From Candidatus Puniceispirillales bacterium (GTDB lineage: Bacteria; Pseudomonadota; Alphaproteobacteria; Puniceispirillales; UBA1172), in NCBI GenBank assembly GCA_049595035.1, contig JBMYKD010000002.1, positions 109,667-173,666 of the forward strand: a stretch of 64,000 nucleotides of DNA. Direction: 5' to 3'. The translations under genes and the position numbers were made by a program. The notes under the pieces are model-generated. The model searched no databases. It was not told the origin of the DNA and was given only the letters and a program-made list of their open reading frames with translations. Below are positions 23,269 to 43,691 of the stretch, piece after piece (within the stretch, counting starts at the first letter, position 1; each line of letters opens with the position of its first letter).

Positions 23269-25023
23269 TTATGTGTCATTAGCCCATAATCCTACCGTAT
23301 GATTATGTTCTGTTTCCACATCCAGGACAGGGTCGGCCGCCATGCTTTTATCCCTATATAGATCCATATTTTCATTACACCCCAGCGATAATAGCATATC
23401 CACTAACTGGTTTTTATCAGGACATAGCCGGGTGTTAAAATAACTCCATCGCCCGTGATTAATCTGACCATAAACATGGGCAGTATGAAAATCAGCAAAA
23501 GTGATTTGATCCAACCTATCCATACATGACCGGATAAACTGATATGGCAGTTCTGTTATCTGTGTTAACACATCTTCTGGTTGTCTGGCATCAACATTAA
23601 TATGCCGATACCGATCAATATTAGAGAGGGCATCCGGATCAAGAATGACCATGGATTTATTTTTACCAAAGGCAATGGTTCGTGGCGGCTCTCCCAGTGG
23701 TTGATCATTGTCAAGAAACTCGAAATGAATCGTTTTATTCTGAACCTGTGACCATGAAAAAAACAGACCCGGAATGCCAGTAAAGGCTTCAATATTATGA
23801 TACAACAAATCATCAACCGCCTTATAACGCTGGGTCGACAATCCCCTATTCCACGCCCTTTCTACTGTCTGGGATGGGGCTGTAATCACAAAAAACAGAT
23901 ATACCACATCGCCAAACCGCGTTAGCAGATTGCTTTGATAACTTCCTTCGGCATTAGTATCAAAGGAATCAAAACGGAAACGGTCAATCAATAAATGCGG
24001 CATAGTTGCTGCGGCTGCTTTTTCGGCCATATACTGATCTAGCTTACGATCAATCATGGTGAGTTCATGCCCTGTCAACATAGCGGCATATTTGTAATCT
24101 TCCCCTAGTGAGTTATAATCAATCAGGTATTTTCGCCAGTAATCTGGTGAAATCACGGCATAGTCTTCCCATTTTGTGCCAAGCTTTACGGCAAGTTGCC
24201 TTTGTTTTGGGCGAAGAGTGCTTTTACCTGCCGCCGATGCCCCTTTCGTATTCATCACCACCGGTTTGGCTTGCGGGGGAAGGAAACGATACCCTTCGGC
24301 TCTGGCGGCCTGATCGAAATCATTTGTAATCATTGCCCTGACTTGCTGGCTACCATAATCATGGAAAACCAGCCTGCTAGCCAGATCAACCATCATATCC
24401 AAGTCTGATATCAACCGCCCCTGCTGACCCATCATGGCGCTACCAAGCCTAACAAGCGCGGCATAGCATGATGACATAAGCGAGGCTTTTGGAGCATCTT
24501 TTGCTTCTTTTTTCCAGATAGCCAACAGGCTGTCATCATCCCGTCTGGTATAAGTGTTCCTGCCTTTCCATAAGCCAAAAAACTGTCTATTACCTGTGAC
24601 TTCAACCATCAGGCTTTGATCAAGAATATTGCATAATTCTATCCGGATTTGCGTTTTAACCTGATCAAATTGAATTCGGAACGCATCTAATTTGGGAATC
24701 ATATGTCGTTGATAGATATGATCGACCATTGACCGTAAAGAAATCCCCAGATCAGCATAATTGGGCCCATCCGGTACATATAGATCAGACGTCACCCGTA
24801 ACAGCAATTCATGAATAATCAGCCTTTCTACATTAAGGATAGCAAGGTCTGTTTCGGGCAAGCCACTTAATCGTGCCGCTTCCCGGGCATCATGGTAATT
24901 AATCGCCCCATTTTCCGGATCAAATAATGTGATGCGCGGCTTCAGATGAGGCGGGATTGATGACGAAATTCCCGGATTCCATGCGTTTTCAACAGGATTA
25001 TGATCAGCGTCTTTCGTCATCAT
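23269..25023 (-). CDS. hypothetical protein with a central P-loop (zeta-toxin/AAA_33-like kinase) module
   Basis: Walker A GASAAGKST at aa 261-269 (nt 24217-24243) and a Walker-B-like LLIDRFRFD. The ~250 aa N-terminal and ~130 aa C-terminal regions are unrecognised. It starts 7 nt after the tctA stop. Confidence 0.55.
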   Translation of the reverse strand: MMTKDADHNPVENAWNPGISSSIPPHLKPRITLFDPENGAINYHDAREAARLSGLPETDLAILNVERLIIHELLLRVTSDLYVPDGPNYADLGISLRSMVDHIYQRHMIPKLDAFRIQFDQVKTQIRIELCNILDQSLMVEVTGNRQFFGLWKGRNTYTRRDDDSLLAIWKKEAKDAPKASLMSSCYAALVRLGSAMMGQQGRLISDLDMMVDLASRLVFHDYGSQQVRAMITNDFDQAARAEGYRFLPPQAKPVVMNTKGASAAGKSTLRPKQRQLAVKLGTKWEDYAVISPDYWRKYLIDYNSLGEDYKYAAMLTGHELTMIDRKLDQYMAEKAAAATMPHLLIDRFRFDSFDTNAEGSYQSNLLTRFGDVVYLFFVITAPSQTVERAWNRGLSTQRYKAVDDLLYHNIEAFTGIPGLFFSWSQVQNKTIHFEFLDNDQPLGEPPRTIAFGKNKSMVILDPDALSNIDRYRHINVDARQPEDVLTQITELPYQFIRSCMDRLDQITFADFHTAHVYGQINHGRWSYFNTRLCPDKNQLVDMLLSLGCNENMDLYRDKSMAADPVLDVETEHNHTVGLWANDT

Positions 25024-25029
25024 CCTTGA

Positions 25030-26547
25030 TCAGGCATTGCGTCGCATCTTCCGCAAAATTAATTGTATCGCCGGCAGAAAGATCAAAATGATAGCACAAA
25101 TGGTAATTGGCCCGGCTATTGGTCTTGTAAAGAAGATCGTGAAGGTTTCATATTGTAGCAAAGTCTGACGTAAGGTTGGTTCAGCAATAGGGCCAAGAAC
25201 AATCGCCAGAACAGCCGGTGCGACCGGATAATCCAATATCCGCATGAAAAACCCGCCAAAACCTACCAGCACCATCAACCAGACATCAAACATATCCAAG
25301 TAAGCCGCATATGTGCCAACCAGCGATAATACAAAAATGGTAGGTGCAAGAATGGTAAATGGCATCCGCAACATCCATAGAAAGACAGGAATGAATAGAA
25401 TATTTACAAAAACGGCAACAAAGTTGGAAATGTAGAATGACCCAATCAACGGCCAGACAAAATCCGGCTGATCCGAAAATAATAACGGCCCCGGCTGAAG
25501 CCCCCAGATTACCATACCAGCAAGCAGAACAGCCGTCGTTGGTGACCCCGGAATACCAAGTGTCATCATCGGTAACATGGCCCCGGTAGAAGCTGAATTG
25601 TTAGCCGCTTCAGGTGCAGCCACGCCATCAACAGCACCTTTGCCGTATTTGCTTGGATCTTTTGACGTCATTTTGGTAACGCCATATGCCATCAGTGAAC
25701 CTGGTGTGGCTCCAGCGGCTGGCAGAATACCAACAAAGAAACCGATAAAAGAACCGATTAGCGTTCCCTTCCATGCAGTTCTAAACTGTTGCAAGGCATA
25801 GACGATGCTTGAAAAGTTCACTTCCACTTTTGACATGGATGACCCATAGCGCGAGGTGTTTATTGTCCATAACATTTCACCAATCCCGTAAATGCCAATA
25901 GCCAGAACAAGAAACCGGATCCCATGTGAAAACCCTTGGATATCGAAAAAGATCAGTCGAGGCTCACCCGATATGATATCAAACCCGACAGCTGACAGGG
26001 CTAGACCAAAACAGATGGAAAATATTGTTTTCGGAAAGTCATCCCCACCCAAACCCGCAAAAGTGGCAAAGGCAAGTAGCATTAGGGCAAAAATTTCAGG
26101 ATTGCCAAAATTCAAAGCCACAGATGCCAGAACAGGCGCAAATGCAGTGAATAAGACATTGGATATGGTTGCGCCAATAAATGATGCTAGCGCGGCCGCC
26201 ATTAACGCGACATGTGCCTTGCCCTGCATGGCTAGAGGCCGTCCATCAAAAGTCGTCGCTACCGCCGTTGATGCCCCCGGTATCCCCAGCGTAATGGATG
26301 ATATTGCCCCCCCATACATAGCCCCATAATAAATAGATGCCAGAAAGATCATGGGGGACGTCGCACCACCTGTAAATCCCTGAATAACAAATGTAAATGG
26401 AAGAAGAATAGCAACACCATTAACGGATCCAAGGCCGGGCATGGCACCAACAAACAGGCCAACAACAACCCCGATAATGGCTAGCCCCAGATTAACGGGC
26501 TGCAAAGCGATCATAATGCCTTCGATTAAATGACCTATGACTTCCAT
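25030..26547 (-). CDS. tctA: tripartite tricarboxylate transporter, large permease TctA
   Basis: 505 aa, polytopic, with ...GAMPGLG... and ...GILPAAGA... TctA motifs. Confidence 0.9.
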   Translation of the reverse strand: MEVIGHLIEGIMIALQPVNLGLAIIGVVVGLFVGAMPGLGSVNGVAILLPFTFVIQGFTGGATSPMIFLASIYYGAMYGGAISSITLGIPGASTAVATTFDGRPLAMQGKAHVALMAAALASFIGATISNVLFTAFAPVLASVALNFGNPEIFALMLLAFATFAGLGGDDFPKTIFSICFGLALSAVGFDIISGEPRLIFFDIQGFSHGIRFLVLAIGIYGIGEMLWTINTSRYGSSMSKVEVNFSSIVYALQQFRTAWKGTLIGSFIGFFVGILPAAGATPGSLMAYGVTKMTSKDPSKYGKGAVDGVAAPEAANNSASTGAMLPMMTLGIPGSPTTAVLLAGMVIWGLQPGPLLFSDQPDFVWPLIGSFYISNFVAVFVNILFIPVFLWMLRMPFTILAPTIFVLSLVGTYAAYLDMFDVWLMVLVGFGGFFMRILDYPVAPAVLAIVLGPIAEPTLRQTLLQYETFTIFFTRPIAGPITICAIILIFLPAIQLILRKMRRNA

Positions 26548-26586
26548 TTTATGATTTCCCCCACATTCACTTTATATGCTTAATTT

Positions 26587-27117
26587 TTATAGAAAAATGT
26601 CATAGAGCGGTATAAATAACGGCTCCAGATATCCTTTTGGTAAAACAATCCGCATAGCAACGTCGAAAAAGAAAAAACTGACTACTGGCATTGCGCTGGC
26701 AATAATCAGGGTTAGCAACCATGTATGCCGGCCAAGGAATTTGAGGTAATAAACCATGAAAAGGAACATAGCACCGTAAAATCCGGCCAGATGAATCATG
26801 ATCAGAAAACCGATAAGCCCTCCGCCAACGGTTAGAAACATTTTTTTTCCATAATCATCCAGAAACGGTTCTTCGGATACAGATTGCGGTGATCGTTTCA
26901 AGACCCAGTTTATGCCAATCCAGATCGTACATATCAGCATGATAAAACCGAGCCAGAATGGCCAGAAGCCGCTTCCGGGAGTGCCGGTTTCATCAAAGCC
27001 GATATTGGCAAAGCGGGGAACACTGGGATTCCATGCCGGTGGCTCACCGCTTTTCCACATAAGGTATATAGAGAATACTCCAAAGATAAACGCAGTTATA
27101 ATTTCTGCACGACGCAT
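26587..27117 (-). CDS. tctB: tripartite tricarboxylate transporter, small permease TctB
   Basis: 176 aa with 4 TM segments, located between tctC and tctA. Confidence 0.72.
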   Translation of the reverse strand: MRRAEIITAFIFGVFSIYLMWKSGEPPAWNPSVPRFANIGFDETGTPGSGFWPFWLGFIMLICTIWIGINWVLKRSPQSVSEEPFLDDYGKKMFLTVGGGLIGFLIMIHLAGFYGAMFLFMVYYLKFLGRHTWLLTLIIASAMPVVSFFFFDVAMRIVLPKGYLEPLFIPLYDIFL

Positions 27118-27152
27118 ATGTTCCCCCCTATATACCTTACGCTTTGATATTT

Positions 27153-28139
27153 TTACTGAATGGCACCTGAAGCGCGCAAAATTGTTTCGTGATTTGCACG
27201 TTGCAGTTTCCAGTAAGCCATTAGCTCATCACCAGACATGAGTTCACCCATGAGTGACTTTTTGCTTTTATAGTCCTGCCAGTCATCCGAGGCATAAACC
27301 TTGGCAAACAGGTCAGTATAATAGGCTTCGGCTTCATCAGACATGCCCGGGGCACCAACAACAGAACGTTGCATGAAGTAGCTGAAATCAACCCCTTTTT
27401 CACGCAAAGTAGGTACATCCGGGAACATTGGCAGACGTTCATCTGTAAATGCTACCAGAGCAATCATGTCACCGGATTCATAGAAACCAAGAGCTTCTGA
27501 TGGGTTGTTCACGGATGAATTGATCTGTTTACCAGCAACATCCTTAGCGACAGCACCCCCGCCCTTATACGGAATATACTTCATGGACAGGCCATAATTA
27601 TCATTCAGGAAATCGGTAATGATATTATCTTCGGAATTTGATCCTGTGCCACCCATGACCCAGTTCTTGCCTTCGGATTTTGCGACCTCAAGCCATTCTT
27701 CGAATGTTGTGATCCCACTATCCTTGTGAACCCATAAAAGGAATGTATCCTCAGCCATACGGGCAACCGGCGCAAATGTCAGAACATCTACATCCAGACC
27801 CGGCTGACGCAACGGGGTTGTATAAAATGAGTTCAATGTCACCATGATTGTATGATCAGGGTCACTGGCAGATTTAGCTGCAATCAGGGCTTCAGCCCCG
27901 GAACCACCAGATTTATTTGTTGGAACTAGTGGACGATTAGCAAGGTCTTCTTTTTCAACAATAGCCTGCATGAGTCGCGCCATTTTATCAGCACCACCAC
28001 CTTTACCGGCCATAATAATGAAATCGATAGGCTTGTTAGGTTGCCAGCCATGTCCATCTGCTTGCGCAAATCCTGACATTGCTGAAAGTGTCATGCCAGC
28101 GGCAACAAAGCCGGTGGCCATCTTTTTAAAAATGCTCAT
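27153..28139 (-). CDS. tctC: TTT-family (Bug/TctC) periplasmic solute-binding protein
   Basis: Signal peptide MSIFKKMATGFVAAGMTLSAMSGFAQA and ...GKGGGADK... The ATG at 28139 follows AGGAGG. The track ORF is 23 codons longer. Confidence 0.88.
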   Translation of the reverse strand: MSIFKKMATGFVAAGMTLSAMSGFAQADGHGWQPNKPIDFIIMAGKGGGADKMARLMQAIVEKEDLANRPLVPTNKSGGSGAEALIAAKSASDPDHTIMVTLNSFYTTPLRQPGLDVDVLTFAPVARMAEDTFLLWVHKDSGITTFEEWLEVAKSEGKNWVMGGTGSNSEDNIITDFLNDNYGLSMKYIPYKGGGAVAKDVAGKQINSSVNNPSEALGFYESGDMIALVAFTDERLPMFPDVPTLREKGVDFSYFMQRSVVGAPGMSDEAEAYYTDLFAKVYASDDWQDYKSKKSLMGELMSGDELMAYWKLQRANHETILRASGAIQ

Positions 28140-28222
28140 GTCTTCCTCCTTTAGAGCGGTTTCCCTTATTATTATCAAATAGACCGTTTTGGTCAGGAAA
28201 CTTACCAAACGGCAAAATAAAA

Positions 28223-28274: not shown

Positions 28275-29138
28275 CTAATGTACCAGAACCAATGGCCCTG
28301 ATGCATGATCGACAAAATGTTGCGTCACTCCTCCTAATATTCTTTCAAAATACTGATTATTACCATAAGCCCCCAGAATAACGATATCAGCCTCACATGC
28401 CAGGCTAGCCTGCATTAAAGATGCCCCGGTTGTACCGGATGGCTTTACCATAATGATATCTGCCTTAATGTCATGTTCGGTCAGGTAGCTTTGCAATTCT
28501 TCCGGCTTGATTTCAACATGACCATTTTCAACAGTCAAAATCGTCAGCTTTTTAGCTATTTTCATCAGCCATAATGTCTGTGCTACCGCCCGTGTGGATT
28601 CAATCGATCCATCCCAGCATAATGCAACCTTATCAATGATATGGCTGTTATGATCAGGCATGTGTTCATCACACATATAGACAGGTCTGCCGGTATGGAA
28701 TAAGGCCGTTTTAAGGGTATTAGCACCTAAATTCCGGTCTATTTCCGGCTTGGCCACAACAATAATATCCGATAGACGGCCATGCCGCCTGACAACATCT
28801 ACCTGACGGCCTTCTGCTTCAATGAATTGTACAGAAACTTTATTTGCCACGGGCTGATCTGACATCGTCACCTCGGCAGATGAACAAATACGCTCCACTT
28901 CGCCACGCATAGCGGTTTCAGCCATATTGAAGACAGAGGCCGATTGGGTCATGATCTGCTTTTTCATATCCCGTGACATGGGCACACCAAAAGGCAGCAT
29001 GTCTTCGGGACGTAACCGGCAATGGGTGACAATAATATGGGCGTTTACCGCTTTTGCCAGAGAAATAGCATGGCGCAAAACGCGTTCCGCATTACCATCA
29101 TCTCTAACAGGAACGACTACCCTGTTTATCATTGTCAC
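28275..29138 (-). CDS. tandem universal stress protein (UspA family)
   Basis: 287 aa with two USP halves, each ending in a G-x2-G-x9-G(S/T)-like segment (...LGAYGNNQYFERILGGVT...). It starts 12 nt after the fhs stop. Confidence 0.78.
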   Translation of the reverse strand: MTMINRVVVPVRDDGNAERVLRHAISLAKAVNAHIIVTHCRLRPEDMLPFGVPMSRDMKKQIMTQSASVFNMAETAMRGEVERICSSAEVTMSDQPVANKVSVQFIEAEGRQVDVVRRHGRLSDIIVVAKPEIDRNLGANTLKTALFHTGRPVYMCDEHMPDHNSHIIDKVALCWDGSIESTRAVAQTLWLMKIAKKLTILTVENGHVEIKPEELQSYLTEHDIKADIIMVKPSGTTGASLMQASLACEADIVILGAYGNNQYFERILGGVTQHFVDHASGPLVLVH

Positions 29139-29150
29139 CCCCTTTAAATG

Positions 29151-30827
29151 TTAGAATAACCCCTCAATAAGGCCATTTTCATTAATGTGAATGCTTTCTG
29201 CTGCCGGCACTCTTGGCAATCCGGGCATCGTCATAATCTCACCACAGACAACGACGACAAAACCTGCACCTGCTGATAACCGGACTTCACGGATAGGAAG
29301 GCTATGGCCAGTTGGTGCGCCACGTTTATTCGGGTCTGTGGTAAAGCTATATTGCGTTTTTGCCATACATACTGGCAATTTACCATAACCCTGCTCTTCC
29401 CATGCTTTTAATTGATCGCGTAATTTCTGATCGGCAATCACTTCATCAGCGCGGTAGATTTCTTTGGCGATGGTTTCGATTTTTTCAAAAAGCCCCATTT
29501 CAACAGGATAAAGGGGCTGGTAATTAGTAGGTGATGATTCAATCATATTGACTACCGCTTTCGCCAGTTCTTCTGTTCCTGCGCTACCATCAGCCCAGTG
29601 GCGGCAGACAATGGCTGTGCCACCCTGATTATGAACGAATGTTTTCAATGCTTCAATTTCAGCATCGGTATCGCTGTAAAAATGATTGATAGCAACAATC
29701 GCCGGGACACCGAATTTCTGGATGTTTTCCATATGCCGGCCAAGATTAGGACAGCCGCGCTTGACCGCTTCGACATTTTCAACCCCAAGATCAGCCTTGG
29801 CAATGCCTCCGTTCATCTTCATTGCCCGAACCGTGGCAACAATTACGGTAGCATCTGGCTTCAACCCTGCCTGACGGCATTTGATATCAAGGAACTTTTC
29901 AGCCCCTAGATCAGCACCAAATCCGGCTTCGGTAACGACATAATCAGCCAGTTTAAGTGCGGTTTTTGTAGCAATGACCGAATTACACCCATGGGCAATA
30001 TTGGCGAATGGCCCACCATGAACAAAGGCAGGGTTATTTTCCAGTGTCTGCACCAGATTAGGTTGCATGGCCTGTTGCAATAGCACCGTCATGGCACCAT
30101 CAGCCTTAATATCACGACAGAATACCGGGCTACGATCACGACGATAGGCAATGATTATATCACCAAGACGACGTTCCAGATCAGCCAGATCATCTGCCAG
30201 ACAGAGAATAGCCATCACTTCTGATGCAACCGTAATATCAAATCCAGCTTCCCGTGGGAAACCATTGGCAACCCCCCCAAGGCTACATGTAATCTGACGG
30301 AGTGCTCTATCATTCATATCGAGAACGCGGCGGAAAGCGACACGGCGAATATCGATATCCTGCTCATTTCCCCAGTAAATGTGATTATCAATCAGGGCGG
30401 CTAACAAATTATGAGCTGATGTAATCGCATGAAAATCACCAGTAAAATGGAGGTTCATTTCTTCCATGGGGACGACTTGTGAATATCCCCCACCAGCGGC
30501 ACCACCCTTCATACCAAAGCAAGGGCCAAGTGACGCCTCACGGATACAGATAGCGGCGTTTTTGCCAATCCGGTTCAACCCATCACCAAGTCCGACGGTG
30601 GTTGTTGTTTTCCCTTCACCTGCAGGGGTAGGGTTAATGGCGGTGACGAGAATCAATTTGCCATTTTCACGTCCATCAAGGCTTTTGATAAAGCTTTCAG
30701 ATACCTTGGCCTTATCATGGCCATAGGGAAGCAAATGTTCATATGGAATACCAAGCTTTTCCCCAATATCCTTGATGGGTTTCTTTTTGGCTTCGCGGGC
30801 AATTTCAATGTCAGTTTTGTAGCTCAC
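29151..30827 (-). CDS. fhs: formate--tetrahydrofolate ligase
   Basis: 558 aa with ...[14 protein letters not shown]... P-loop and ...[13 protein letters not shown]... Confidence 0.95.
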
Positions 30828-30852: not shown

Positions 30853-31767
30853 CTAGTGTCCTAGAGTATTTCCGGTTTTAAGAGAGATTATTGATGCCCA
30901 TTCTGAAGCCGGAATCTTTCCGCTACCTTCAGGCCGGACACGTTTAATAAGAATTCGTCCACCATTTGCTTGGACTGTTACTCCTTCTTCAGAGATAGCA
31001 ACAATCTCACCAGCTTTGCCATCGCCGTCCATTCTAACTGCGTCATATATTTTTATCTCATCACCATTCAGCGTTGTCCACGCCCCTGGGGCAGGGTTTG
31101 CCGCCCGGATGGTGTTGTAGGTATCGGCTACCGGCTTAGACCAGTCGAGTTTAGCGCAATCCTTGTTAAACCAGCCTTCATAAGTGCCGTCTTCCAGCCG
31201 TTGATCATGTTTGATAATGACCCCGGCCTTAACCAGATCAAGACCTTCCAGCATTGCCGCGACCCCCATTGGGAACAGCTTTTTGAAATAGACATCACCA
31301 AGGGTTTCATCCGCACCAATAGGACAGGTTTTCTGCAACATGATTGGCCCTTCATCCAGACCGTCATCAGGCCAGAAAATCGTCAGTCCGGTATGGGTTT
31401 TACCCATAGCAATCGGCCAGTTGATAGATGAAGGCCCCCTATGTTGCGGGCATAAAGATGGATGATACTGGAATGTTCCATAAGTGGGTGCATCACGCAC
31501 CGCTTCAGGGACGAATAGCAATACATATGCCATCATGCATATATCAGCTTTGAAAGATTGCATTAAGGCAAGGGCTTCGGGCGTTTTCCATGACGCTGGC
31601 TGATGCAAGGGAAGTCCTTTTTCCTTTGCCAGTAATGCCAGCGGGTCCTCGGGCTTACCTTCTTTCGTCGGGGCACAACATACGGCAACCACATCTTCGC
31701 CTCTATCCAGAAGCTCTTTTAATACCGCTTCGCCAAAAGCCTGTTGTCCGTGTAAAACGATCCGCAT
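30853..31767 (-). CDS. formyltransferase-family protein resembling the N-terminal (hydrolase/formyl-transfer) domain of 10-formyl-THF dehydrogenase
   Basis: 304 aa with QYHPSLCPQHRGPSSINW (catalytic His), FWPDDGLDEGPIMLQ (catalytic Asp) and ...TYEGW...LDW...NP.PGAWT in the C-subdomain. Confidence 0.72.
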   Translation of the reverse strand: MRIVLHGQQAFGEAVLKELLDRGEDVVAVCCAPTKEGKPEDPLALLAKEKGLPLHQPASWKTPEALALMQSFKADICMMAYVLLFVPEAVRDAPTYGTFQYHPSLCPQHRGPSSINWPIAMGKTHTGLTIFWPDDGLDEGPIMLQKTCPIGADETLGDVYFKKLFPMGVAAMLEGLDLVKAGVIIKHDQRLEDGTYEGWFNKDCAKLDWSKPVADTYNTIRAANPAPGAWTTLNGDEIKIYDAVRMDGDGKAGEIVAISEEGVTVQANGGRILIKRVRPEGSGKIPASEWASIISLKTGNTLGH

Positions 31768-31783: not shown

Positions 31784-33070
31784 TTATTCTGCCGCCTTGT
31801 TTACGTCACCTACTGCACCTGATGATACGATATTTTCAATTTCACCATCATCATAATGCAATACATCTTGCAAAATTTCCAATGTATGTTCACCAAGCAA
31901 TGGCGACCGTGTGACTTCAACCGGACTTGCTGATAGCTTTACCGGACATCCCACCGAAATATATTCCCCGCGTTCGGGGTGGTCGACTTTTACCAGTGTG
32001 CCCGTATCATATAGCCCTTCATCTTCAGCAATCTCTTTCATTGATAGAATAGGGCCAACCGGAATATCTAGCGGATTACATAAATCCATGACTTCGAATT
32101 TGGTTTTTGTCATAGTCCATGCTTCGATTCGTTCAAATATCTGATTAAGTTTATCGAGCCGTTCCGGTGGTGTGGCAAAGCCGTCAGCTGTTTTCCAGTC
32201 TGGTTCACCAATCAGATCACATACCTTTTCCCACACTGCCGCCTGAATAATGAAATAGGTATAGGCATTCGGGTCACTTTCCCAGCCCTTGCATTTCAGG
32301 ATACGGCCGGGTTGTCCACCGCCAGAATCATTACCAGCGCGCGGAGTAGCCTCACCAAATGGGATGCCTTCGCCAAATTGCGAATATTCTCTCAGAGGGC
32401 CTGCCTCAAGGCGTTGCTGATCACGCATCTTGACCCGTGCCAGATTAAGCACCGCATCCTGCATGGCAACGCTTACCCTTTGCCCCAATCCTGTTTTTTC
32501 ACGGTGGAATAATGCTGTAACAATACCCAGACATAAATGCAGGCCTGTGCCAGAATCGCCAATCTGCGCCCCTGTTACTAATGGCGGGCCATCCAGAAAT
32601 CCGGTGGTAGATGCAGAACCACCAGCGCATTGCGCCACATTTTCATAAACCTTGCAATCTTCATATTTGCCGGGGCCAAAGCCTTTTATTGATGCCAGAA
32701 TAATCCGTGGGTTGATTTCATGAACACGTTCCCAGCTGAACCCCATTCTGTCCAGTGCACCGGGAGCAAAGTTTTCTACCAGAACATCACATTCCTTAAT
32801 CAGTCTGGTCAGAACTTCCTTACCGGTTTCATTTTTAGAGTTCAGTTCAATCGACCGTTTATTATGATTCAGCATGGTAAAATAGAGGCTGTCAGAGCCA
32901 GGCTTATCAACAAGCTGCTTGCGTGTTGCATCACCAACGCCCGGCCGTTCGACCTTAATCACATCAGCACCAAACCATCCCAGAATCTGGGTACATGTGG
33001 GTCCTGATTGAACATGGGTAAAGTCGAGTACTTTAATCCCTTCTAACGCTTTCATCATCTTATTCACCAT
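31784..33070 (-). CDS. frc: formyl-CoA:oxalate CoA-transferase
   Basis: ...[34 protein letters not shown]..., ...[10 protein letters not shown]... and ...LKCKGWE... parallel O. formigenes Frc. The start may be the ATG at 33058. Confidence 0.92.
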
Positions 33071-33116: not shown

Positions 33117-34877
33117 CTAGGATTTTGCCTTATTCTGCATCACAATACTTTGTGGGTTCAAATTACCAATCCGTCCACTTTCGGTACCAGCCCCTTCATC
33201 AATGATGGCATTGACCAAAGTAGGCTTGCCAGATGCCAATGCTTCACGCACGGCGCGGCCAAGTTCATCAGGATTGGTGACATAAACACCAACCCCGCCA
33301 AAAGCCTGCATCATCATATCGTAACGGGAATCCTTAACAAATACCGTTGGTGCCACATCATCGCCACCGGTCGGGTTTTTATCTGTTCCCCGATAGATGC
33401 CGTTGTTATTAAAGACAACAATACAGACAGGCAGGTTATATCGGCAAATCGTCTCAATTTCCATGCCAGAGAAACCAAACGCACTATCACCTTCAATGGC
33501 TAGAACAGATTTACCAGTTTCTATTGCCGCGGCAATCGAAGCGCCCTGACCAATACCCATAATGCCCCAGGTGCCAACATCAATCCGGTGCCTTGGCTTA
33601 TAGATATCAATAATGCTACGGGCAAAATCCAGCGTATTTGCGCCTTCGTTAACTAAAATGATATCAGGGTTATCCTTAACAACCTGACGCAATGATCCAA
33701 GCGCCCCATGATAATCCATAGGCACGGCATTACTCATTAATTTAGAGGCCATTTTTTCCAGATTGACCGCTTTTTTGTCATTAATCATTCCCAGCCAGTC
33801 ATCAGATGGTTTATTCCAGTTTGTTCCCATCTCTTCATCCATCAATTCAAGACATGAACCAATATCTCCAACTAGCGGTGCGGCAATTTCGACATTGCTA
33901 TCCATTTCACGGGGCTCAATATCAATCTGGATGAATTTTTTTGCCCCCGGTGCCCCCCAGGCTTTACCCTTACCATGGGACAATAGCCAGTTTAGCCTTG
34001 CACCAATAAGCATTACCACATCAGCCTCTTTCAGAACAAGCGACCGCGCCGCCGCCGCTGATTGGGGATGATCATCAGGCAGTAATCCTTTGGCCATACT
34101 CATGGGCAGATACGGAACACCACTTTTTTCAACAAAGCGTTTCAACAGCTCATCTTCCTGTGCATATGCAGCACCTTTACCTATGATCAATAAAGGTTTC
34201 TTTGCTTGTTTCAGCACATCAACCGCTCGCGTTATGGCCGCTGGTGATGGCAATTGGGCAGGCGCTGGATCAATGACTTTAACCAGAGAAGCCTTACCCT
34301 TTTCCGCGTCCATCACTTGTGAGAATAATTGCGCCGGCAAATCAAGATAAACACCGCCCGGACGCCCGGAACAGGCGGCTCTGATAGCCCTTGCTATACC
34401 AATGCCAATATCTTCCGCATGAAGAATACGGAATGCCGCCTTGCAAAGCGGCTTGGCAATCGCTAACTGATCCATTTCTTCATAATCACCCTGCTGAAGA
34501 TCAACAATTTCACGCTCGGATGATCCGCTGATCAATATCATAGGAAAACAGTTTGTTGTCGCATTGGCCAGTGCTGTCAGGCCATTCAAAAACCCCGGCG
34601 CGGAAACAGTCAAGGCTACCCCCGGCTTTTTCGTCAGATAACCGGCAATGGACGCGGCATATCCGGCATGTTGTTCGTGACGGAAAGAAATCACGCGCAT
34701 ACCTTCCGCCTGAGCGATACGTCCAAGATCGGTGATCGGGATGCCGGGAACATTATATATCGTATTGATATCATTTAGCTTTAGCGCATCAACAACAAGA
34801 TGAAATCCATCAGTAAGTTGGGCTACATCGGTATCTGTATCCTGATTATCCTGTTTTGCAACGGTCTGATCAGACAT
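33117..34877 (-). CDS. oxc: oxalyl-CoA decarboxylase (ThDP-dependent). The frame is open upstream into the GntR module.
   Basis: Begins MSDQ...[27 protein letters not shown]..., with ...[12 protein letters not shown]... and ...[22 protein letters not shown]... Collinear with stand-alone Oxc proteins from the first residue. Confidence 0.92.
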
Positions 34878-35699
34878 GGAAAGCTCCTTTTTTGTATCTT
34901 TATTTGCAGGTGTTATTAATTCGGGTTTGGATAACGACAAATCATCATCCGGCGTTTCAGCTTGAGATTCTGGTTTTTGAGCTTCTGCATTATTGCCGTC
35001 ATCGCTATTGGAAAAAACCGTCCAGCGTGATCTGATATGATCATGCAGGCGCATGGTATGTTCACGCACAAGATTGGCAGCGAGGTCTGCATCTCTGGCT
35101 TCGAGAGCATTAATAATCTCTAGGTGATCAGATAGTGATTTACTGGCACGGTCATCTTCATGGATAGCGCGTCTACGGATAGCCGCCATCTGCATGAATA
35201 GCTGATCTGTTGTGGTTTTCAGTAACGCACATCCGGATAATTCCAGTATCGTCTGATGAAAGGTGATATTGGCATCAGAATATTCACTGATTGGGATGGA
35301 ATCGCTTTCCCCGACAGCACCTTGTGCGAAACGCCGCAACAAAAGCAGATCATCATCACTGGCATGCTGGGTTACCAATCTGGCGGCCATACTTTCCAGC
35401 GCGGCCCATGTGATCACCATTTCCAGAATTTCCGTCATGGATTTGCGGTGGATAAATACACCTTTGCGGGGAATAATTTCAACCAGACCATCTTGTGCTA
35501 GGCGTGCCAGCACTTCACGAATCGGTGTGCGAGAAACCCCGAGCTGGGTGGCTAGCTGCCTTTCATCAAGGCGCAGATCTTCGTCGGAATCATAAATATC
35601 AACGCCGAGGATATAGTCACGAAGCACATCATAAAGGTGATCCTTTATGGTAAAGTCATTTGCTATTGGCTTAAGCTTCATATCGCTCAACGTTAACAT
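34878..35699 (-). CDS. GntR-family (FadR/FCD-type) transcriptional regulator module plus acidic linker, with no in-frame stop before oxc
   Basis: wHTH ...[37 protein letters not shown]... plus a helical FCD-like domain to about aa 226, then a 45-aa D/E/P/S-rich linker. Confidence 0.8.
34884..34889 (-). promoter_or_regulatory. internal Shine-Dalgarno (AAGGAG) for the oxc ATG at 34877
   Basis: The minus strand reads AAAAAAGGAGCTTTCCATG, a 6-nt spacer to the ATG. Confidence 0.55.
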
Positions 35700-36018: not shown

Positions 36019-37215
36019 ATGAATATTCATGAATATCAAGCTAAGGCGATTTTAAAAAGCTATGGCGCACCTGTGGCGAACGGAGCGGTCATAACAGACG
36101 CCAGCCAGATTGATCATGCGATTGCATCCATGCCGGGGCCTGTCTGGGTGGTGAAAAGCCAGATACATGCTGGTGGCAGAGGTAAAGGCAAGTTCAAGGA
36201 ACTACCAGCCGAGGCAAAAGGCGGTGTCAGGGTAAGTTTCTCGGCCGATGAAGCCAAAGCCAATGCGCGTGAAATGTATGGCAAAACCCTTGTTACCGCG
36301 CAGACAGGGGAAAGCGGCAAGACCGTAAACAGGCTCTACATAGAAGACGGCGCCGATATTGATAAAGAACTCTATCTTTCCATCCTTGTTGATCGCGCCA
36401 TTGGCAAAGTCGCCTTTGTGGTATCCACCGAAGGCGGGATGGATATTGAAACAGTTGCCCATGATACACCTGAAAAAATCCACACAGTTGGTATTAATCA
36501 TGGCACAGGCTGCACGGATCAGGATGCAGGAACACTTGCTGACGCCCTTGGTCTGGACGGCAAAGCCAGAGAAGAAGGCATGGCTTTATTCAAAACCCTT
36601 TATCAGGCATTTGTGGAAAAGGATATGAGTCTGCTGGAAATCAATCCGCTAATCGTCACAAAAGCGAATGAGATTCAGGTGCTGGATGCGAAAGTATCCT
36701 TTGATAATAATGCTTTGTTTCGGCATCCTGATATTGTCGCTTTGCGGGATATCACGGAAGAAGACCCGAAAGAACTAGAAGCTTCAAAACATGACCTAGC
36801 CTATATCGCTCTTGATGGTGATATCGGCTGTATGGTGAATGGTGCCGGACTTGCCATGGCAACGATGGATATCATCAAGCTTTATGGCGCAGAACCAGCC
36901 AATTTTCTTGATGTCGGGGGCGGAGCCACAACGGAAAAAGTAACCGCCGCCTTCAAAATCATTACCGCTGATCCTAATGTTAAAGGGATTCTAGTTAATA
37001 TTTTTGGCGGCATTATGCGATGCGACGTGATTGCGGAAGGTGTTGTTCAAGCCGCCAAGGATATCGCACTTCATGTGCCTTTGGTGGTAAGACTGGAAGG
37101 CACAAAAGTGGCAGAAGGCAAAGCTATTCTTGAAGCAAGTGGACTTGATCTGATTGCCGCTGATGATCTGAATGACGCCGCTGAAAAAATTGTTAAAGCG
37201 GTAAAAGGGAATTAG
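36019..37215 (+). CDS. sucC: succinate--CoA ligase (ADP-forming) beta subunit
   Basis: [13 protein letters not shown]..., [17 protein letters not shown]... and [14 protein letters not shown]. Near-canonical alphaproteobacterial SucC. Confidence 0.92.
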
Positions 37216-37225
37216 GGGTACGATC

Positions 37226-38128
37226 ATGGCAATTTTAATCAACAAAGACACAAAAATCATTGTTCAGGGTCTTACTGGCAAAACCGGCACCTTTCATACG
37301 GAACAGGCGTTAGCCTATCATAACACACAGATGATTGCTGGCACGCACCCGAAAAAAGCAGGTGAAGAATGGGTAAGTGAAACTGGCAAAACGCTTCCTA
37401 TTTTCGGATCAGTGGCTGATGCAAAAAGCGCAACAGGCGCAAATGCCTCGGTGATATATGTTCCTCCAGCTGGTGCGGCAGATGCCATCATCGAAGCCAT
37501 TGATGCCGGCATTGCGCTTATCACCTGTATTACCGAAGGTGTGCCAGTGCTTGATATGGTGCGGGTCAAAGAACGCCTAGATGCATCTTCATCACGTCTG
37601 ATCGGGCCAAATTGCCCCGGCCTGCTTACCCCCGGCGAATGCAAGATTGGTATCATGCCAAGCAGTATTTTCCGCCGTGGGTCTGTCGGGGTATTGTCAC
37701 GTTCGGGCACCTTGACCTATGAAGCGGTTTATCAAACCAGTATGGCCGGACTAGGCCAATCGACAGCCGTAGGGATCGGTGGTGACCCTGTTAAGGGAAC
37801 AGAGTTTATTGATGTGCTTGATATGTTTCTTGATGATGACGAAACCAAGTCCATCATCATGATCGGAGAAATTGGCGGTTCTGCCGAAGAAGAAGCTGCG
37901 GAATTCATTAAGGCAGAAGCAAAAAAAGGTCGCAAAAAGCCAATGGTAGGGTTTATTGCCGGCCGCACATCACCACCCGGTCGGACAATGGGACATGCTG
38001 GTGCGGTCATTTCAGGAGGTAAAGGCGGTGCAGATGCCAAGATTGAAGCACTGGAACAGGCCGGCGTCAAGGTATCCCCCTCACCTGCCAGTCTTGGTGA
38101 TACACTGGTTTCTCTGCTAAATGGTTAG
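37226..38128 (+). CDS. sucD: succinate--CoA ligase alpha subunit
   Basis: ...[12 protein letters not shown]..., SRSGTLTYE and GHAGA (phosphohistidine loop). Confidence 0.93.
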
Positions 38129-38205: not shown

Positions 38206-39273
38206 TTACGCCGATTTAGCAGGCATATTTTCAGCGGCCTCATTTTTAGCAAGACGATCATCAACAATGGCCACGATGGAATCAACCGTAGGATTGAACA
38301 TATCCAGATGACGGCCGATGATTTGTATCATGCGGTCAACGCGTTCAACCTTTGTCGTGCCAGCATCAATGGCGCGCGCAACCGAGGACGGCTTTAACAG
38401 CTGTTTGGCGGCGGCGGCATATTTGGCAAAAGGAACCTGATCACTTTCATCAGCACCAAGTTTCTGTGCCAGATGATCAACCCAGCGATACATCTGTTCA
38501 GCGGTATCGATATCACCATGAACAGCATCATGAATAGGCTGGATATCATCAGAACGGACACAACGATAATTACCAGTCATCAGCATTGACCATTTGGCCA
38601 TGGGCACAAATAGTGAGTTAAACACCCGCAACTTCACTGGCACATCCTTGCCATCAATGCGGACATTATCAATATCTTCGGCCAGTGTTTTCAGCATGGC
38701 ATTATGTTCATCTGAAGCAAAGGTGCTGGCCTTGAAATTTGTTGGCAATCCGACATGAAGAACATTGCTGCCTTCTTCTGGTGGGCGGAATGCCTGCGGG
38801 TCAGGGCTACAAAGAGAGATCAGCCCCGGTTCAAAATTAGCCCAGACGCTGGCATCATCATAGCAGGATGAAAGATCAGCATCAGCAAGGGCAGGAATAC
38901 GTTTCAGGAAAGCCAGCGGCGGCATATTCATGATAGATAGGCAGGGTTTTTTCGCATCTGCAATCCGTTTCATCAAGCCGGCAACGGAAGGAGAGGCATA
39001 TTGCGGTTCCTGCATAGCCAGACCGATCAGATCATATTGTTCTGGCTCAACCTGTTCAGGCGTCTTGGCATCAAGGGTACCAGGTTGATCCTTTGAAAGA
39101 ATGGATCTATGCGTATCCTCATCCCGGAGCTTAATTCGCACCTCTGTGCCTTGCGTATTAATCAGCTGGGCAGAAGTCGAACGGCAAACCAGAGTCACAT
39201 CATGGCCAGCCATAAGCAGTTTTGTTGAAAGTAGTGATCCGTAAGATGCACCGAGGATTAGAATTTTCATCAC
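38206..39273 (-). CDS. divergent ketopantoate-reductase (ApbA/PanE)-like NAD(P) oxidoreductase, substrate unknown
   Basis: N-terminal Rossmann MKILILGASYGS. By-eye counterparts of PanE motifs: IMNMP (IHNG), AKWSMLMTGN (WRKLxxN) and PSSVARAID...ERVD (SSMLQD...TExD). Confidence 0.42.
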   Translation of the reverse strand: MMKILILGASYGSLLSTKLLMAGHDVTLVCRSTSAQLINTQGTEVRIKLRDEDTHRSILSKDQPGTLDAKTPEQVEPEQYDLIGLAMQEPQYASPSVAGLMKRIADAKKPCLSIMNMPPLAFLKRIPALADADLSSCYDDASVWANFEPGLISLCSPDPQAFRPPEEGSNVLHVGLPTNFKASTFASDEHNAMLKTLAEDIDNVRIDGKDVPVKLRVFNSLFVPMAKWSMLMTGNYRCVRSDDIQPIHDAVHGDIDTAEQMYRWVDHLAQKLGADESDQVPFAKYAAAAKQLLKPSSVARAIDAGTTKVERVDRMIQIIGRHLDMFNPTVDSIVAIVDDRLAKNEAAENMPAKSA

Positions 39274-43680: not shown

Positions 43681-43691
43681 GGATCAATTCC

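What the first reader, a model, noticed from the sequence alone, without database searches (positions are those of the whole stretch)
30853..31767. Stand-alone ALDH1L1-N-domain-like formyltransferase between frc and fhs: candidate formyl-CoA:tetrahydrofolate formyltransferase
Seen: this is a 304-aa ORF that starts 16 nt after the frc stop, and fhs starts 25 nt after its own stop, all on the same strand, so the three are almost certainly co-transcribed. It keeps the formyltransferase catalytic His and Asp (QYHPSLCPQHRGPSSINW and FWPDDGLDEGPIMLQ). By eye it tracks the N-terminal domain of 10-formyl-THF dehydrogenase (IIYHPSLLPRHRGASAINW...FWADDGLDTGDLLLQ...TYEG...PGAWT) more closely than Fmt, PurN or ArnA, which carry N-x-H-x-SLLP. 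Established: in 10-formyl-THF dehydrogenase this domain moves the formyl group between N10 of THF and the thiol of a 4'-phosphopantetheine arm, and CoA carries the same arm. Oxc produces formyl-CoA, and Fhs spends ATP to make 10-formyl-THF from free formate. Inference: the protein could catalyse formyl-CoA + THF <-> 10-formyl-THF + CoA. That would conserve the thioester and bypass ATP-dependent Fhs. Alternatively it could be a 10-formyl-THF hydrolase that balances formate against the C1 pool. I do not know of such an enzyme having been described.
Basis: partly seen in the sequence, partly recalled or inferred. Interest (0 to 1): 0.78.

Follow-up and report, generated by a model that had tools for sequence, protein, structure and literature searches.

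The report
Formyl-CoA/folate formyltransferase in oxalate operon
A gene wrongly labelled "methionyl-tRNA formyltransferase" sits between the formyl-CoA transferase and formate-THF ligase genes of a widely conserved bacterial oxalate operon, and most likely moves a formyl group between coenzyme A and tetrahydrofolate; that chemistry was shown in 2025 for an antibiotic-pathway enzyme but has not been described in central carbon metabolism.

Summary
A 304-aa ORF (30853-31767, minus strand) lies 16 nt after frc and 25 nt before fhs. It carries both quoted motifs. It matches the N-terminal domain of 10-formyl-THF dehydrogenase (ALDH1L1; 188 bits) better than Fmt (138), ArnA (78) or PurN, with no PurU hit, and it fails NCBI's fmt model (133.5 against a 201.5 cut-off).

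The linkage to frc is strongly conserved. In 80 species-level genomes with 48-88% identical homologues, frc lies just upstream in 58 and fhs just downstream in 40. These span Alpha- and Gammaproteobacteria, Dehalococcoidia and cultured strains (Methylobacterium, Paracoccaceae La 6).

It is not undescribed: LctF (2025) makes formyl-CoA from 10-formyl-THF and CoA in vitro, and the same step is proposed for the HypX N-domain. The "saves ATP" argument fails for oxalate, because the Frc/Oxc cycle already recycles the thioester.

I favour the reverse net direction. Fhs plus this enzyme would make formyl-CoA from formate and ATP, to prime and replenish the cycle. The direction is unresolved without assays.

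Verdict: a new variant of a known kind, in a new, abundant, misannotated metabolic setting.

The parts
30853..31767 (-). Stand-alone ALDH1L1-N-type formyltransferase (here 'FT'), 304 aa; candidate 10-formyl-THF:CoA formyltransferase
   Evidence: Pfam Formyl_trans_N plus Formyl_trans_C. Fails the fmt equivalog model (133.5 bits against 201.5). Best PDB matches are ALDH1L1 hydrolase domains.
31417..31470 (-). Motif QYHPSLCPQHRGPSSINW (residues 100-117), with catalytic His102 and Ser104. Gln100 replaces the Asn of the Fmt/PurN/ArnA N-x-H motif.
   Evidence: Translation. H102, P103, S104, P107 and G111 are invariant in 70 family members; position 100 is Q or C in the family, I in ALDH1L1 and N in all six Fmt sequences.
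31333..31377 (-). Motif FWPDDGLDEGPIMLQ (residues 131-145), with catalytic Asp138
   Evidence: Translation. F131, P133, L137, D138 and G140 are invariant in all 70 family members, and G136 in 69 of 70. FW(P/A) is shared with ALDH1L1, while Fmt has M-Q-M.
31784..33070 (-). [quoted passage not shown]
   Evidence: TIGR03253 690 bits, cut-off 504. Lies immediately upstream of FT in 58 of 80 related loci.
29151..30827 (-). fhs, formate--tetrahydrofolate ligase; starts 25 nt after the FT stop
   Evidence: NF010030 932 bits, cut-off 652. Lies immediately downstream of FT in 40 of 80 loci.
33117..35699 (-). Single 860-aa ORF joining a GntR/FCD regulator (residues ~40-215) and oxalyl-CoA decarboxylase (residues ~286-855)
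   Evidence: Pfam GntR, FCD and three TPP domains. Oxc NF006721 1007 bits. The single ORF is seen only in this lineage.
28275..29138 (-). Universal stress protein family gene, same strand, downstream of fhs
   Evidence: Pfam Usp. Conserved after fhs in many loci.
25030..28208 (-). tctC-tctB-tctA tripartite tricarboxylate-type transporter (candidate oxalate uptake system)
   Evidence: Pfam TctC and TctB/TctA in relatives. Conserved beside the operon.
36019..38128 (+). Divergently transcribed sucC/sucD paralogue (ADP-forming acyl-CoA ligase)
   Evidence: NF001913 547 bits and NF004230 446 bits. 66% identical to 'sucC_4' in the same island of strain La 6.
38206..39273 (-). Divergent PanE/ApbA-like oxidoreductase; candidate oxalyl-CoA reductase / CoA-acylating glyoxylate dehydrogenase
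   Evidence: Pfam ApbA 22.0 bits, just under the 22.2 cut-off. 58% identical to 'Ketopantoate reductase' LA6_005551 in the La 6 island.
40885..45389 (-). NAD-linked formate dehydrogenase alpha and beta subunits
   Evidence: TIGR01591 737 bits. FdhA/FdhB homologues recur next to the operon in other loci.

Best explanation
The ORF encodes a stand-alone, thiol-directed formyltransferase. It reversibly moves a formyl group between N10 of tetrahydrofolate and the thiol of free coenzyme A (10-formyl-THF + CoA <-> formyl-CoA + THF), using the His102/Ser104/Asp138 centre it shares with the ALDH1L1 N-domain. I put the probability of this chemistry at about 0.6.

My preferred physiological reading is that it works together with the co-transcribed Fhs and Frc. 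Fhs makes 10-formyl-THF from formate and ATP. FT passes the formyl group to CoA. Frc then uses formyl-CoA to activate oxalate. Together, Fhs and FT amount to a two-step, ADP-forming 'formyl-CoA synthetase'. It would start the otherwise autocatalytic Frc/Oxc cycle. It would also replace thioesters lost by spontaneous formyl-CoA hydrolysis, or by withdrawal of oxalyl-CoA for reduction to glyoxylate.

Shown here: the identity of the fold and motifs, the exclusion of Fmt, PurU, PurN and ArnA, and the conserved gene linkage. Inferred: the CoA acceptor, reversibility and net direction.
For: (1) Family placement. PDB phmmer gives ALDH1L1 hydrolase domain 188 bits > Fmt 138 > ArnA 78 > HypX 54. Foldseek gives the same order. 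In an NJ tree the family sits with true ALDH1L proteins (which carry PP-binding and Aldedh domains) and apart from Fmt. The shared signatures are GQxxFG, (Y/F)HPSL, SINW and FW(P/A).

(2) The relatives with studied function use a pantetheine thiol as acceptor: ALDH1L1 uses the 4'-phosphopantetheine arm, and HypX is proposed on structural grounds to use CoA (PMC6802093). A stand-alone Fmt-like enzyme, LctF, forms formyl-CoA from 10-formyl-THF and CoA in vitro (PMC11730586).

(3) Synteny. frc is immediately upstream in 58 of 80 genomes (median gap 80 nt) and fhs immediately downstream in 40 (median gap 65 nt). Methylobacterium has a minimal frc-FT pair. In Dehalococcoidia FT follows a different Oxc/HACL-superfamily TPP enzyme and Frc-subfamily CoA-transferases. 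Formyl-CoA is the common denominator.

(4) Need for priming. The Frc/Oxc cycle needs a starter thioester, and formyl-CoA has a half-life of 1.9 h (PMC3720670). A candidate oxalyl-CoA reductase in the island would drain thioesters.

(5) The order frc-FT-fhs matches a linear route: formate -> 10-formyl-THF -> formyl-CoA -> oxalyl-CoA.

(6) In strain La 6 the island copies are annotated fmt_2 and fhs_2, which suggests separate housekeeping copies.
Against: There is no biochemical, genetic or expression evidence for any member of this clade. CoA binding cannot be read from the sequence, because the complex of the ALDH1L1 N-domain with the pantetheine arm has not been resolved. Formyl transfer from 10-formyl-THF to a thiol is probably mildly uphill (my estimate from textbook hydrolysis energies is roughly +5 to +13 kJ/mol), so it would need pulling by Frc and Oxc. 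An island-specific SucCD paralogue could prime the cycle through succinyl-CoA, which would make this role redundant. In 13 of 44 frc-linked loci with both flanks available, fhs is not adjacent. In 15 loci FT has neither frc nor fhs nearby.
Confidence: 0.35

Rival explanations
1. Same chemistry, opposite net direction: formyl-CoA + THF -> 10-formyl-THF + CoA. The C1 unit released by Oxc enters the folate pool without passing through free formate. A variant of this reading has Fhs then running backwards (10-formyl-THF + ADP + Pi -> formate + ATP), so that the thioester is harvested as ATP.
For: The thioester-to-amide direction is probably the exergonic one (own estimate). Frc, not Fhs, is the tightest partner: frc is present without an adjacent fhs in 13 loci, while fhs without frc is essentially absent. 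This direction gives a real gain if oxalyl-CoA is made by oxidising glyoxylate, as in the oxalyl-CoA decarboxylation route of C. necator (PMC7486775). In that route CoA must leave formyl-CoA without an oxalate acceptor, and formyl-CoA hydrolase is an orphan activity (PMC10192776). A PanE/ApbA-like gene lies in the island. Serine-cycle genes that consume C1-THF flank the island in strain La 6. Fhs enzymes have poor affinity for formate (own knowledge), so a direct transfer would bypass a kinetic bottleneck.
Against: With oxalate as substrate there is no net ATP saving, because the thioester is needed to activate the next oxalate (stoichiometric inference). Fhs in the same operon would then be partly redundant. 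Every characterised member of the superfamily, including LctF, HypX and ALDH1L1, uses 10-formyl-THF as the donor.
Confidence: 0.27
2. A hydrolase. Either a 10-formyl-THF hydrolase (the in vitro activity of the isolated ALDH1L1 N-domain, and a PurU-like role), or the orphan formyl-CoA hydrolase EC 3.1.2.10, releasing formate for formate dehydrogenase.
For: The closest solved structures are deposited as 'hydrolase domain' of 10-formyl-THF dehydrogenase. Formyl-CoA hydrolase has had no gene assigned since 1963 (PMC10192776). A formate dehydrogenase is encoded nearby.
Against: A 10-formyl-THF hydrolase co-transcribed with Fhs would make an ATP-burning futile cycle. In intact ALDH1L1 the domain passes formyl to the pantetheine thiol rather than to water (PMC6802093 discussion). 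There is no similarity to PurU. No formyltransferase-fold enzyme is known to hydrolyse a thioester. Frc already releases formate.
Confidence: 0.12
3. A 10-formyl-THF-dependent formyltransferase acting on some other acceptor: an amine metabolite, a sugar nucleotide, or a carrier-protein pantetheine arm. On this reading it is unrelated to formyl-CoA.
For: Most Formyl_trans_N enzymes formylate amines. Fifteen of the 61 loci with both flanks available have neither frc nor fhs adjacent, and these are interspersed with linked ones in the tree.
Against: The Asn of the N-x-H motif used by the amine formyltransferases is absent, being Gln or Cys. No carrier-protein gene, sugar-nucleotide gene or other conserved partner is found in any context. 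The scores against ArnA and the sugar formyltransferases are low. The frc linkage recurs in three separate clades of the family.
Confidence: 0.13
4. A second methionyl-tRNA formyltransferase, as current annotation says.
For: Database names. It has the same two-domain fold, with TM-scores of 0.89-0.93 to Fmt structures.
Against: It scores 133.5 bits against the 201.5 cut-off of TIGR00460. Six other family members score 122-175, whereas true Fmt controls score 284-326. It lacks the N-x-H Asn. It also lacks the basic insertion loop (Fmt control P0187 has KGRGKKL where FT has a 5-residue gap). It lies in an oxalate operon rather than next to def.
Confidence: 0.03

Closest known systems
[quoted passage not shown]
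   Same: It is the best sequence and structure match: 188 bits, 33-34% identity, TM 0.84-0.89. It has the same two-subdomain fold and the same His/Ser/Asp centre. It shares the signatures GQxxFG, YHPSL, (S/A)INW and FW(P/A)DDGLD. The acceptor there is a pantetheine thiol.
   Different: ALDH1L1 is a three-domain fusion in which the acceptor is a covalently attached 4'-phosphopantetheine arm on an internal carrier domain, followed by an aldehyde dehydrogenase domain. FT is a free-standing 304-aa protein with no carrier or dehydrogenase partner nearby, so its thiol would have to be free CoA. The ALDH1L clade is a separate branch in the tree.
LctF, formyltransferase of lactacystin biosynthesis (Streptomyces lactacystinicus; PMC11730586)
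   Same: It is a stand-alone Fmt-like protein, and it has been shown in vitro to catalyse 10-formyl-THF + CoA -> formyl-CoA + THF. This is the reaction proposed here, in my preferred direction.
   Different: LctF serves a PKS/NRPS secondary-metabolite pathway, where formyl-CoA is loaded onto an ACP. FT sits in a primary catabolic operon. The sequence relationship could not be tested (LC830955 was not available in the tools); the paper reports only 32% identity to Fmt.
HypX (HoxX) N-terminal domain, CO-ligand synthesis for O2-tolerant [NiFe]-hydrogenase (PDB 6j0p; PMC6802093)
   Same: It has the formyltransferase fold with conserved His and Asp. It is proposed to transfer formyl from 10-formyl-THF to CoA, giving formyl-CoA.
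   Different: It is only distantly related (54 bits, 19-20% identity, TM 0.7). In HypX the domain is fused to an enoyl-CoA hydratase-like domain that decarbonylates formyl-CoA, CoA is a permanently bound cofactor, and Ser is replaced by Asp80.
Methionyl-tRNA formyltransferase (Fmt, TIGR00460)
   Same: It has the same Pfam domain pair and overall fold, and this is the name under which the family is currently annotated.
   Different: FT fails the equivalog cut-off, lacks the catalytic Asn and the tRNA-binding basic loop, and has a different genomic context.
YfdE (acetyl-CoA:oxalate CoA-transferase) of E. coli, the known 'primer' of the Frc/Oxc cycle (PMC3720670)
   Same: It has the same proposed physiological role: supplying the first thioester, and replacement thioesters, for oxalate activation.
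   Different: It is an unrelated protein family (class III CoA-transferase) that uses acetyl-CoA rather than formate, ATP and folate.

Membership tests
Methionyl-tRNA formyltransferase (Fmt) | Score at or above the curated cut-off of the equivalog model TIGR00460 (201.5 bits) | tested here: not met
   The window protein scores 133.5 bits. Six family members score 122-175 bits, while four Fmt controls score 284-326 bits.
Methionyl-tRNA formyltransferase (Fmt) | Catalytic Asn two residues before the His (N-x-H-x-S-L-L-P) | tested here: not met
   Position 100 is Gln here. It is Q in 39 and C in 14 of 53 frc-linked members, and N in 6 of 6 Fmt sequences.
Methionyl-tRNA formyltransferase (Fmt) | Basic insertion loop in the N-domain that contacts the tRNA acceptor stem | tested here: not met
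   The Fmt control P0187 has PKGRGKKLQPTP where FT and its relatives have a 5-residue gap and no RGKK (alignment A1). The role of the loop is taken from my own knowledge of the E. coli Fmt-tRNA structure.
10-formyl-THF dehydrogenase (ALDH1L1/L2) | N-terminal formyltransferase/hydrolase domain with the His-Ser-Asp centre and family signatures | tested here: met
   188 bits to 4qpd and 186 bits to 1s3i. Foldseek top hits. Shared motifs.
10-formyl-THF dehydrogenase (ALDH1L1/L2) | Fused carrier (PP-binding) domain and C-terminal aldehyde dehydrogenase domain | tested here: not met
   The 304-aa protein has only Formyl_trans_N and Formyl_trans_C. True ALDH1L representatives carry PP-binding and Aldedh domains. 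No such genes are adjacent.
10-formyl-THF:CoA formyltransferase (LctF / HypX-N type activity) | Formyltransferase fold with conserved catalytic His and Asp and an intact folate-site motif | tested here: met
   H102, S104, D138 and the SL(L/C)P..RG and GLD.G motifs are invariant or nearly so. The model has pLDDT 95.
10-formyl-THF:CoA formyltransferase (LctF / HypX-N type activity) | Catalyses formyl transfer between 10-formyl-THF and free CoA | not testable with these tools
   An enzyme assay is required. The only evidence here is indirect: conserved adjacency to formyl-CoA-handling enzymes.
10-formyl-THF:CoA formyltransferase (LctF / HypX-N type activity) | Sequence relatedness to LctF | not tested
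   No LctF sequence was available: no supplementary files are held and accession LC830955 could not be reached.
HypX | C-terminal enoyl-CoA hydratase-like decarbonylase domain and hyp gene context | tested here: not met
   There is no such domain. The match to HypX is only 51-54 bits. There are no hyp genes in the window.
Formyltetrahydrofolate deformylase (PurU) | Significant match to PurU models or structures, with an ACT domain | tested here: not met
   No PurU family appears among the NCBIfam hits at E<=0.01. No PurU chain appears among 50 PDB hits at E<=1e-3.
PurN / ArnA / sugar N-formyltransferases | Score at or above the family cut-off | tested here: not met
   PurN 36.7 bits against 150. 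ArnA 91.4 against 777. dTDP-sugar formyltransferase 22.1 against 238.

The most novel reading that the evidence does not exclude
FT and Fhs together form a natural, reversible, folate-mediated bridge between formyl-CoA and formate plus ATP. In abundant marine bacteria (SAR116/Puniceispirillales, roseobacters, Granulosicoccus and others) it would run forwards. Glycolate or glyoxylate would be oxidised to oxalyl-CoA and decarboxylated to formyl-CoA. The thioester would then be cashed in as ATP by substrate-level phosphorylation (formyl-CoA -> 10-formyl-THF -> formate + ATP) before formate dehydrogenase finishes the oxidation. This would be a previously unrecognised energy-conserving C2 oxidation route. 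[quoted passage not shown]
Probability: 0.12. Interest if true: 0.85.

Novelty: new variant of a known kind. Interest (0 to 1): 0.62.

Why it matters
If the assignment holds, three things follow.

(1) Thousands of database entries named "methionyl-tRNA formyltransferase" are wrong.

(2) The textbook Frc/Oxc scheme for oxalate breakdown gains a third core enzyme in most aerobic marine and soil Proteobacteria. This enzyme would explain how the self-feeding cycle is started and kept supplied with thioesters, or how its C1 unit reaches folate.

(3) Synthetic one-carbon metabolism would gain a useful part. Current designs make formyl-CoA from formate with poor engineered acyl-CoA synthetases. In the other direction, they hydrolyse formyl-CoA to formate and then spend ATP on formate-THF ligase (for example the 2025 CORE cycle, PMC11961710). 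A natural, well-expressed formyl-CoA/10-formyl-THF transferase from central metabolism would serve both directions.

The family also looks like the closest free-living bacterial relative of the N-terminal module of the animal enzyme ALDH1L1, which is described as a natural fusion of three genes (PMC8748788).

Tried and rejected
- **Other conserved partners.** I looked for an alternative conserved partner in the 18 loci without frc, by all-against-all clustering of neighbours. There was none: only sensor kinases, ABC ATPases and amidohydrolases shared by 3-4 loci. Spot checks gave a Dyp peroxidase, a Mo-hydroxylase and a glyoxylate-reductase-like gene. I therefore found no second functional context.
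- **Rosetta-stone fusions.** I looked for fusions among the longer representatives. The only ones were ALDH1L-type proteins (PP-binding and Aldedh domains) and a tandem formyltransferase. None involved Frc, Fhs or CoA-binding domains.
- **All neighbours in the 80 loci.** Clustering found nothing conserved beyond gntR, oxc, frc, fhs, tctCBA, usp, fdsAB, sucCD and one unknown 584-aa gene. The other 'clusters' were antisense artefacts of my crude ORF caller in high-GC DNA.
- **Promoter and terminator scan.** The counts were at chance level, so the scan was uninformative.
- **Residue-level test of a pantetheine channel.** This was not possible. The ALDH1L1 cryo-EM paper does not resolve the contact between the N-domain and the arm, and model coordinates are not exposed to scripts.
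- **Literature.** Eight full-text searches found no paper linking a formyltransferase to frc/oxc operons. The key Methylobacterium oxalate paper (Schneider 2012) is not held.
- **Structure comparison.** On its own it does not separate ALDH1L1-N from Fmt (TM 0.85-0.93 for both). The discrimination rests on sequence.
- **The 'thioester-saving' rationale.** I rejected it for oxalate on stoichiometric grounds.
Full report
**1. The observation.** The ORF at 30853..31767 encodes 304 aa. The frc stop codon is followed by 16 nt containing a GGGGG ribosome-binding motif and then the ATG. The ORF's TAG is followed by 25 nt and then the GTG of fhs. The two motifs translate exactly as quoted. The neighbours are genuine: Frc (690 bits, cut-off 504), Fhs (932, cut-off 652) and Oxc (1007, cut-off 557). 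No other formyltransferase-like ORF exists in the 64-kb window.

**2. What the protein is.** It has the Formyl_trans_N and Formyl_trans_C domain pair, but it fails NCBI's methionyl-tRNA formyltransferase model (133.5 bits against 201.5).
- Six further family members also fail that model (122-175 bits), while four Fmt controls pass (284-326 bits).
- Against all PDB sequences the best matches are the N-terminal 'hydrolase' domains of 10-formyl-THF dehydrogenase (178-188 bits). These are well ahead of Fmt (105-138), ArnA (73-78), HypX (51-54) and PurN (22-32). PurU does not appear.
- An AlphaFold2 model (pLDDT 95.1, pTM 0.90) gives the same order in Foldseek, although the TM-scores to Fmt are equally high. 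The discrimination is therefore by sequence, not by fold.
- A column-by-column comparison of 70 family members with rat ALDH1L1 and six Fmt sequences shows signatures shared with ALDH1L1 and absent from Fmt: GQxxFG (Fmt has GTPxFA), (Y/F)HPSL (Fmt has (V/I)H(G/A)SL), SINW (Fmt has PIQx) and FW(P/A) (Fmt has MQM).
- The Asn of the N-x-H motif of amine-directed formyltransferases is replaced by Gln or Cys.
- The basic tRNA-contacting loop of Fmt is missing.
- In a neighbour-joining tree, Fmt sequences form the outgroup. True ALDH1L proteins (confirmed to carry PP-binding and Aldedh domains) form one branch, and the window protein sits in a large bacterial branch of stand-alone proteins. The tree is a simple distance tree without support values.

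**3. Conservation of the gene neighbourhood.** A scan of one genome per species (185,579 species) returned at least 590 relatives, and the best 80 (48-88% identity) were examined with 10-kb flanks.
- The window's nearest relative is a Candidatus Puniceispirillales (SAR116) genome.
- frc lies immediately upstream of FT in 58 loci (median gap 80 nt), and fhs immediately downstream in 40 (median gap 65 nt). Under stricter criteria, 52 of the 72 loci with enough upstream sequence have frc, and 31 of the 61 loci with both flanks have both genes.
- The usual unit is gntR-oxc-frc-FT-fhs. It is often accompanied by a universal stress protein, a TctCBA transporter, NAD-formate dehydrogenase and a sucCD paralogue.
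- The linkage is seen in many orders of Alpha- and Gammaproteobacteria.
- In a separate Methylobacterium clade the unit shrinks to frc-FT, next to an MFS transporter and a GntR regulator.
- In Dehalococcoidia FT follows a TPP enzyme of the Oxc/HACL superfamily that is not Oxc, together with Frc-subfamily CoA-transferases.
- A cultured marine isolate, Paracoccaceae strain La 6, carries the whole island on a plasmid. There FT is annotated 'fmt_2' and the ligase 'fhs_2'.
- Fifteen loci have neither frc nor fhs nearby. They share no alternative partner and are scattered among linked ones in the tree. They therefore look like the same enzyme in rearranged genomes rather than a different function.

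**4. How it most likely works.**
- *Shown:* the catalytic centre and folate-site motifs are intact and invariant, and the closest relatives transfer formyl from N10 of THF to a pantetheine thiol.
- *Established in the literature:* ALDH1L1 uses the 4'-phosphopantetheine arm. The HypX N-domain is proposed to formylate CoA (PMC6802093). LctF, a free-standing Fmt-like protein, was shown in vitro to make formyl-CoA from 10-formyl-THF and CoA (PMC11730586).
- *Inferred:* FT has no carrier domain or carrier gene, and its most constant neighbour is an enzyme whose substrate is formyl-CoA. Free CoA is therefore the likely thiol. The reaction would be 10-formyl-THF + CoA <-> formyl-CoA + THF. I rate this chemistry at about 0.6.

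**5. Direction.** For oxalate this gives no net saving. In the Frc/Oxc cycle the thioester is already conserved, because Frc hands the CoA to the next oxalate. If FT took the formyl group instead, free CoA would have to be re-esterified to oxalate for one ATP equivalent. That is the same price as Frc followed by Fhs.

The cycle does have two known weaknesses.
- It cannot start without a thioester. This priming problem is discussed for E. coli YfdE, which also reports a formyl-CoA half-life of 1.9 h (PMC3720670).
- It is drained whenever oxalyl-CoA is reduced to glyoxylate for assimilation. A PanE/ApbA-like candidate for that step lies in the island. Serine-cycle genes flank the island in strain La 6.

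Fhs plus FT would supply formyl-CoA from formate, ATP and CoA, and Frc would then make oxalyl-CoA. The gene order frc-FT-fhs matches that linear route, and every characterised relative uses 10-formyl-THF as donor.

The margin is small, for four reasons.
- The transfer to a thiol is probably mildly uphill.
- A sucCD paralogue in the island could prime the cycle through succinyl-CoA.
- fhs is not always adjacent.
In that route CoA must be released from formyl-CoA, and no gene is known for formyl-CoA hydrolase (PMC10192776).

The enzyme may simply run near equilibrium and balance the thioester budget in either direction.

**6. Rivals.**
- *A hydrolase.* A 10-formyl-THF hydrolase would make a futile cycle with the co-transcribed Fhs, and a thioester hydrolase has no precedent in this fold (0.12).
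- *Another acceptor.* This is disfavoured by the missing Asn, the lack of any other conserved partner and the recurrence of the frc linkage in separate clades (0.13).
- *A second Fmt.* This is excluded as far as sequence can exclude it (0.03).

**7. Comparison with what is known, and novelty.** The chemistry is not new, given LctF (2025) and HypX (2019). My eight full-text literature searches found no description of three things:
- a large, conserved clade of stand-alone ALDH1L1-N-type formyltransferases built into the oxalate/formyl-CoA operon of primary metabolism;
- its abundance in marine metagenomes;
- its uniform misannotation as Fmt.

A 2025 synthetic-biology design still routes formyl-CoA to formyl-THF through free formate and the ATP-dependent ligase. 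I class the finding as a new variant of a known kind. It is computationally well supported as a gene-context association, but it is biochemically untested.

**8. Limits.**
- There are no expression or activity data.
- The tree is a distance tree.
- Only the flanks of related genomes were available, not whole genomes.
- LctF could not be aligned.
- The thermodynamic statements are my own estimates from standard hydrolysis energies, not tool results.

Noticed in passing
window 33117..35699 (-): The GntR/FCD regulator and oxalyl-CoA decarboxylase form one uninterrupted 860-aa ORF, joined by an acidic, low-complexity linker of about 70 aa. Close relatives (L001-L007) have the same single ORF, called as 882 aa. 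In 22 of 23 other loci the two are separate genes. This could be a real regulator-enzyme fusion, or a lost stop codon with internal re-initiation.
   Followed up: partly
window 38206..39273 (-) and 39432..40874 (+): The 355-aa ORF barely touches Pfam ApbA/PanE (22.0 bits against a 22.2 cut-off). It is 58% identical to the 'Ketopantoate reductase' in the same island of strain La 6, and in both genomes it lies next to a RamB-like regulator. It is a candidate oxalyl-CoA reductase / CoA-acylating glyoxylate dehydrogenase, by analogy with PanE2 of M. extorquens and ApbA2 of C. necator.
   Followed up: partly
window 36019..38128 (+): A sucC/sucD pair is transcribed divergently from the oxalate operon. 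In strain La 6 the orthologous pair (66% identity) is annotated as the fourth sucCD copy. More distant SucCD-like pairs recur beside the operon in about ten loci, with two tandem pairs in L017. These may supply succinyl-CoA for oxalate activation, or be malate- or oxalate-CoA ligases.
   Followed up: partly
window 23269..25023 (-): A 584-aa ORF with no family assignment gives only a weak Zeta_toxin/P-loop kinase hit (19.4 bits; Walker-A-like GASAAGKST). It is conserved directly after tctA in at least 8 related loci, so it is probably part of the same functional island.
   Followed up: no
L087 (CP031587.1, plasmid pLA6_002 of Paracoccaceae strain La 6), locus 1-24915: A cultured marine isolate carries the whole island (FDH, sucCD_4, gntR, oxc, frc_5, fmt_2 = FT, fhs_2, usp, tctCBA, ramB-like, PanE-like). 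It is flanked by serine-cycle-type genes: ppc, glyA2, a serine-glyoxylate aminotransferase-like gene annotated 'soluble hydrogenase 42 kDa subunit', and hprA. This makes it a ready experimental system.
   Followed up: partly
L083 596..4872 and L074 2056..6278 (Dehalococcoidia MAGs): FT follows a TPP enzyme that scores below the cut-off for both Oxc (318-330 bits) and 2-hydroxyacyl-CoA lyase (368 against 600), together with Frc-subfamily CoA-transferases. This may be a different pathway that also generates formyl-CoA and uses the same formyltransferase.
   Followed up: partly
window 20850..23216 (-): A cytoplasmic-looking BisC/TorA-family molybdopterin S/N-oxide reductase (908 bits to TIGR00509, below its 1017 cut-off) lies at the end of the island. 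It is conserved in that position in the close relatives L001-L006. Its substrate is unknown.
   Followed up: no
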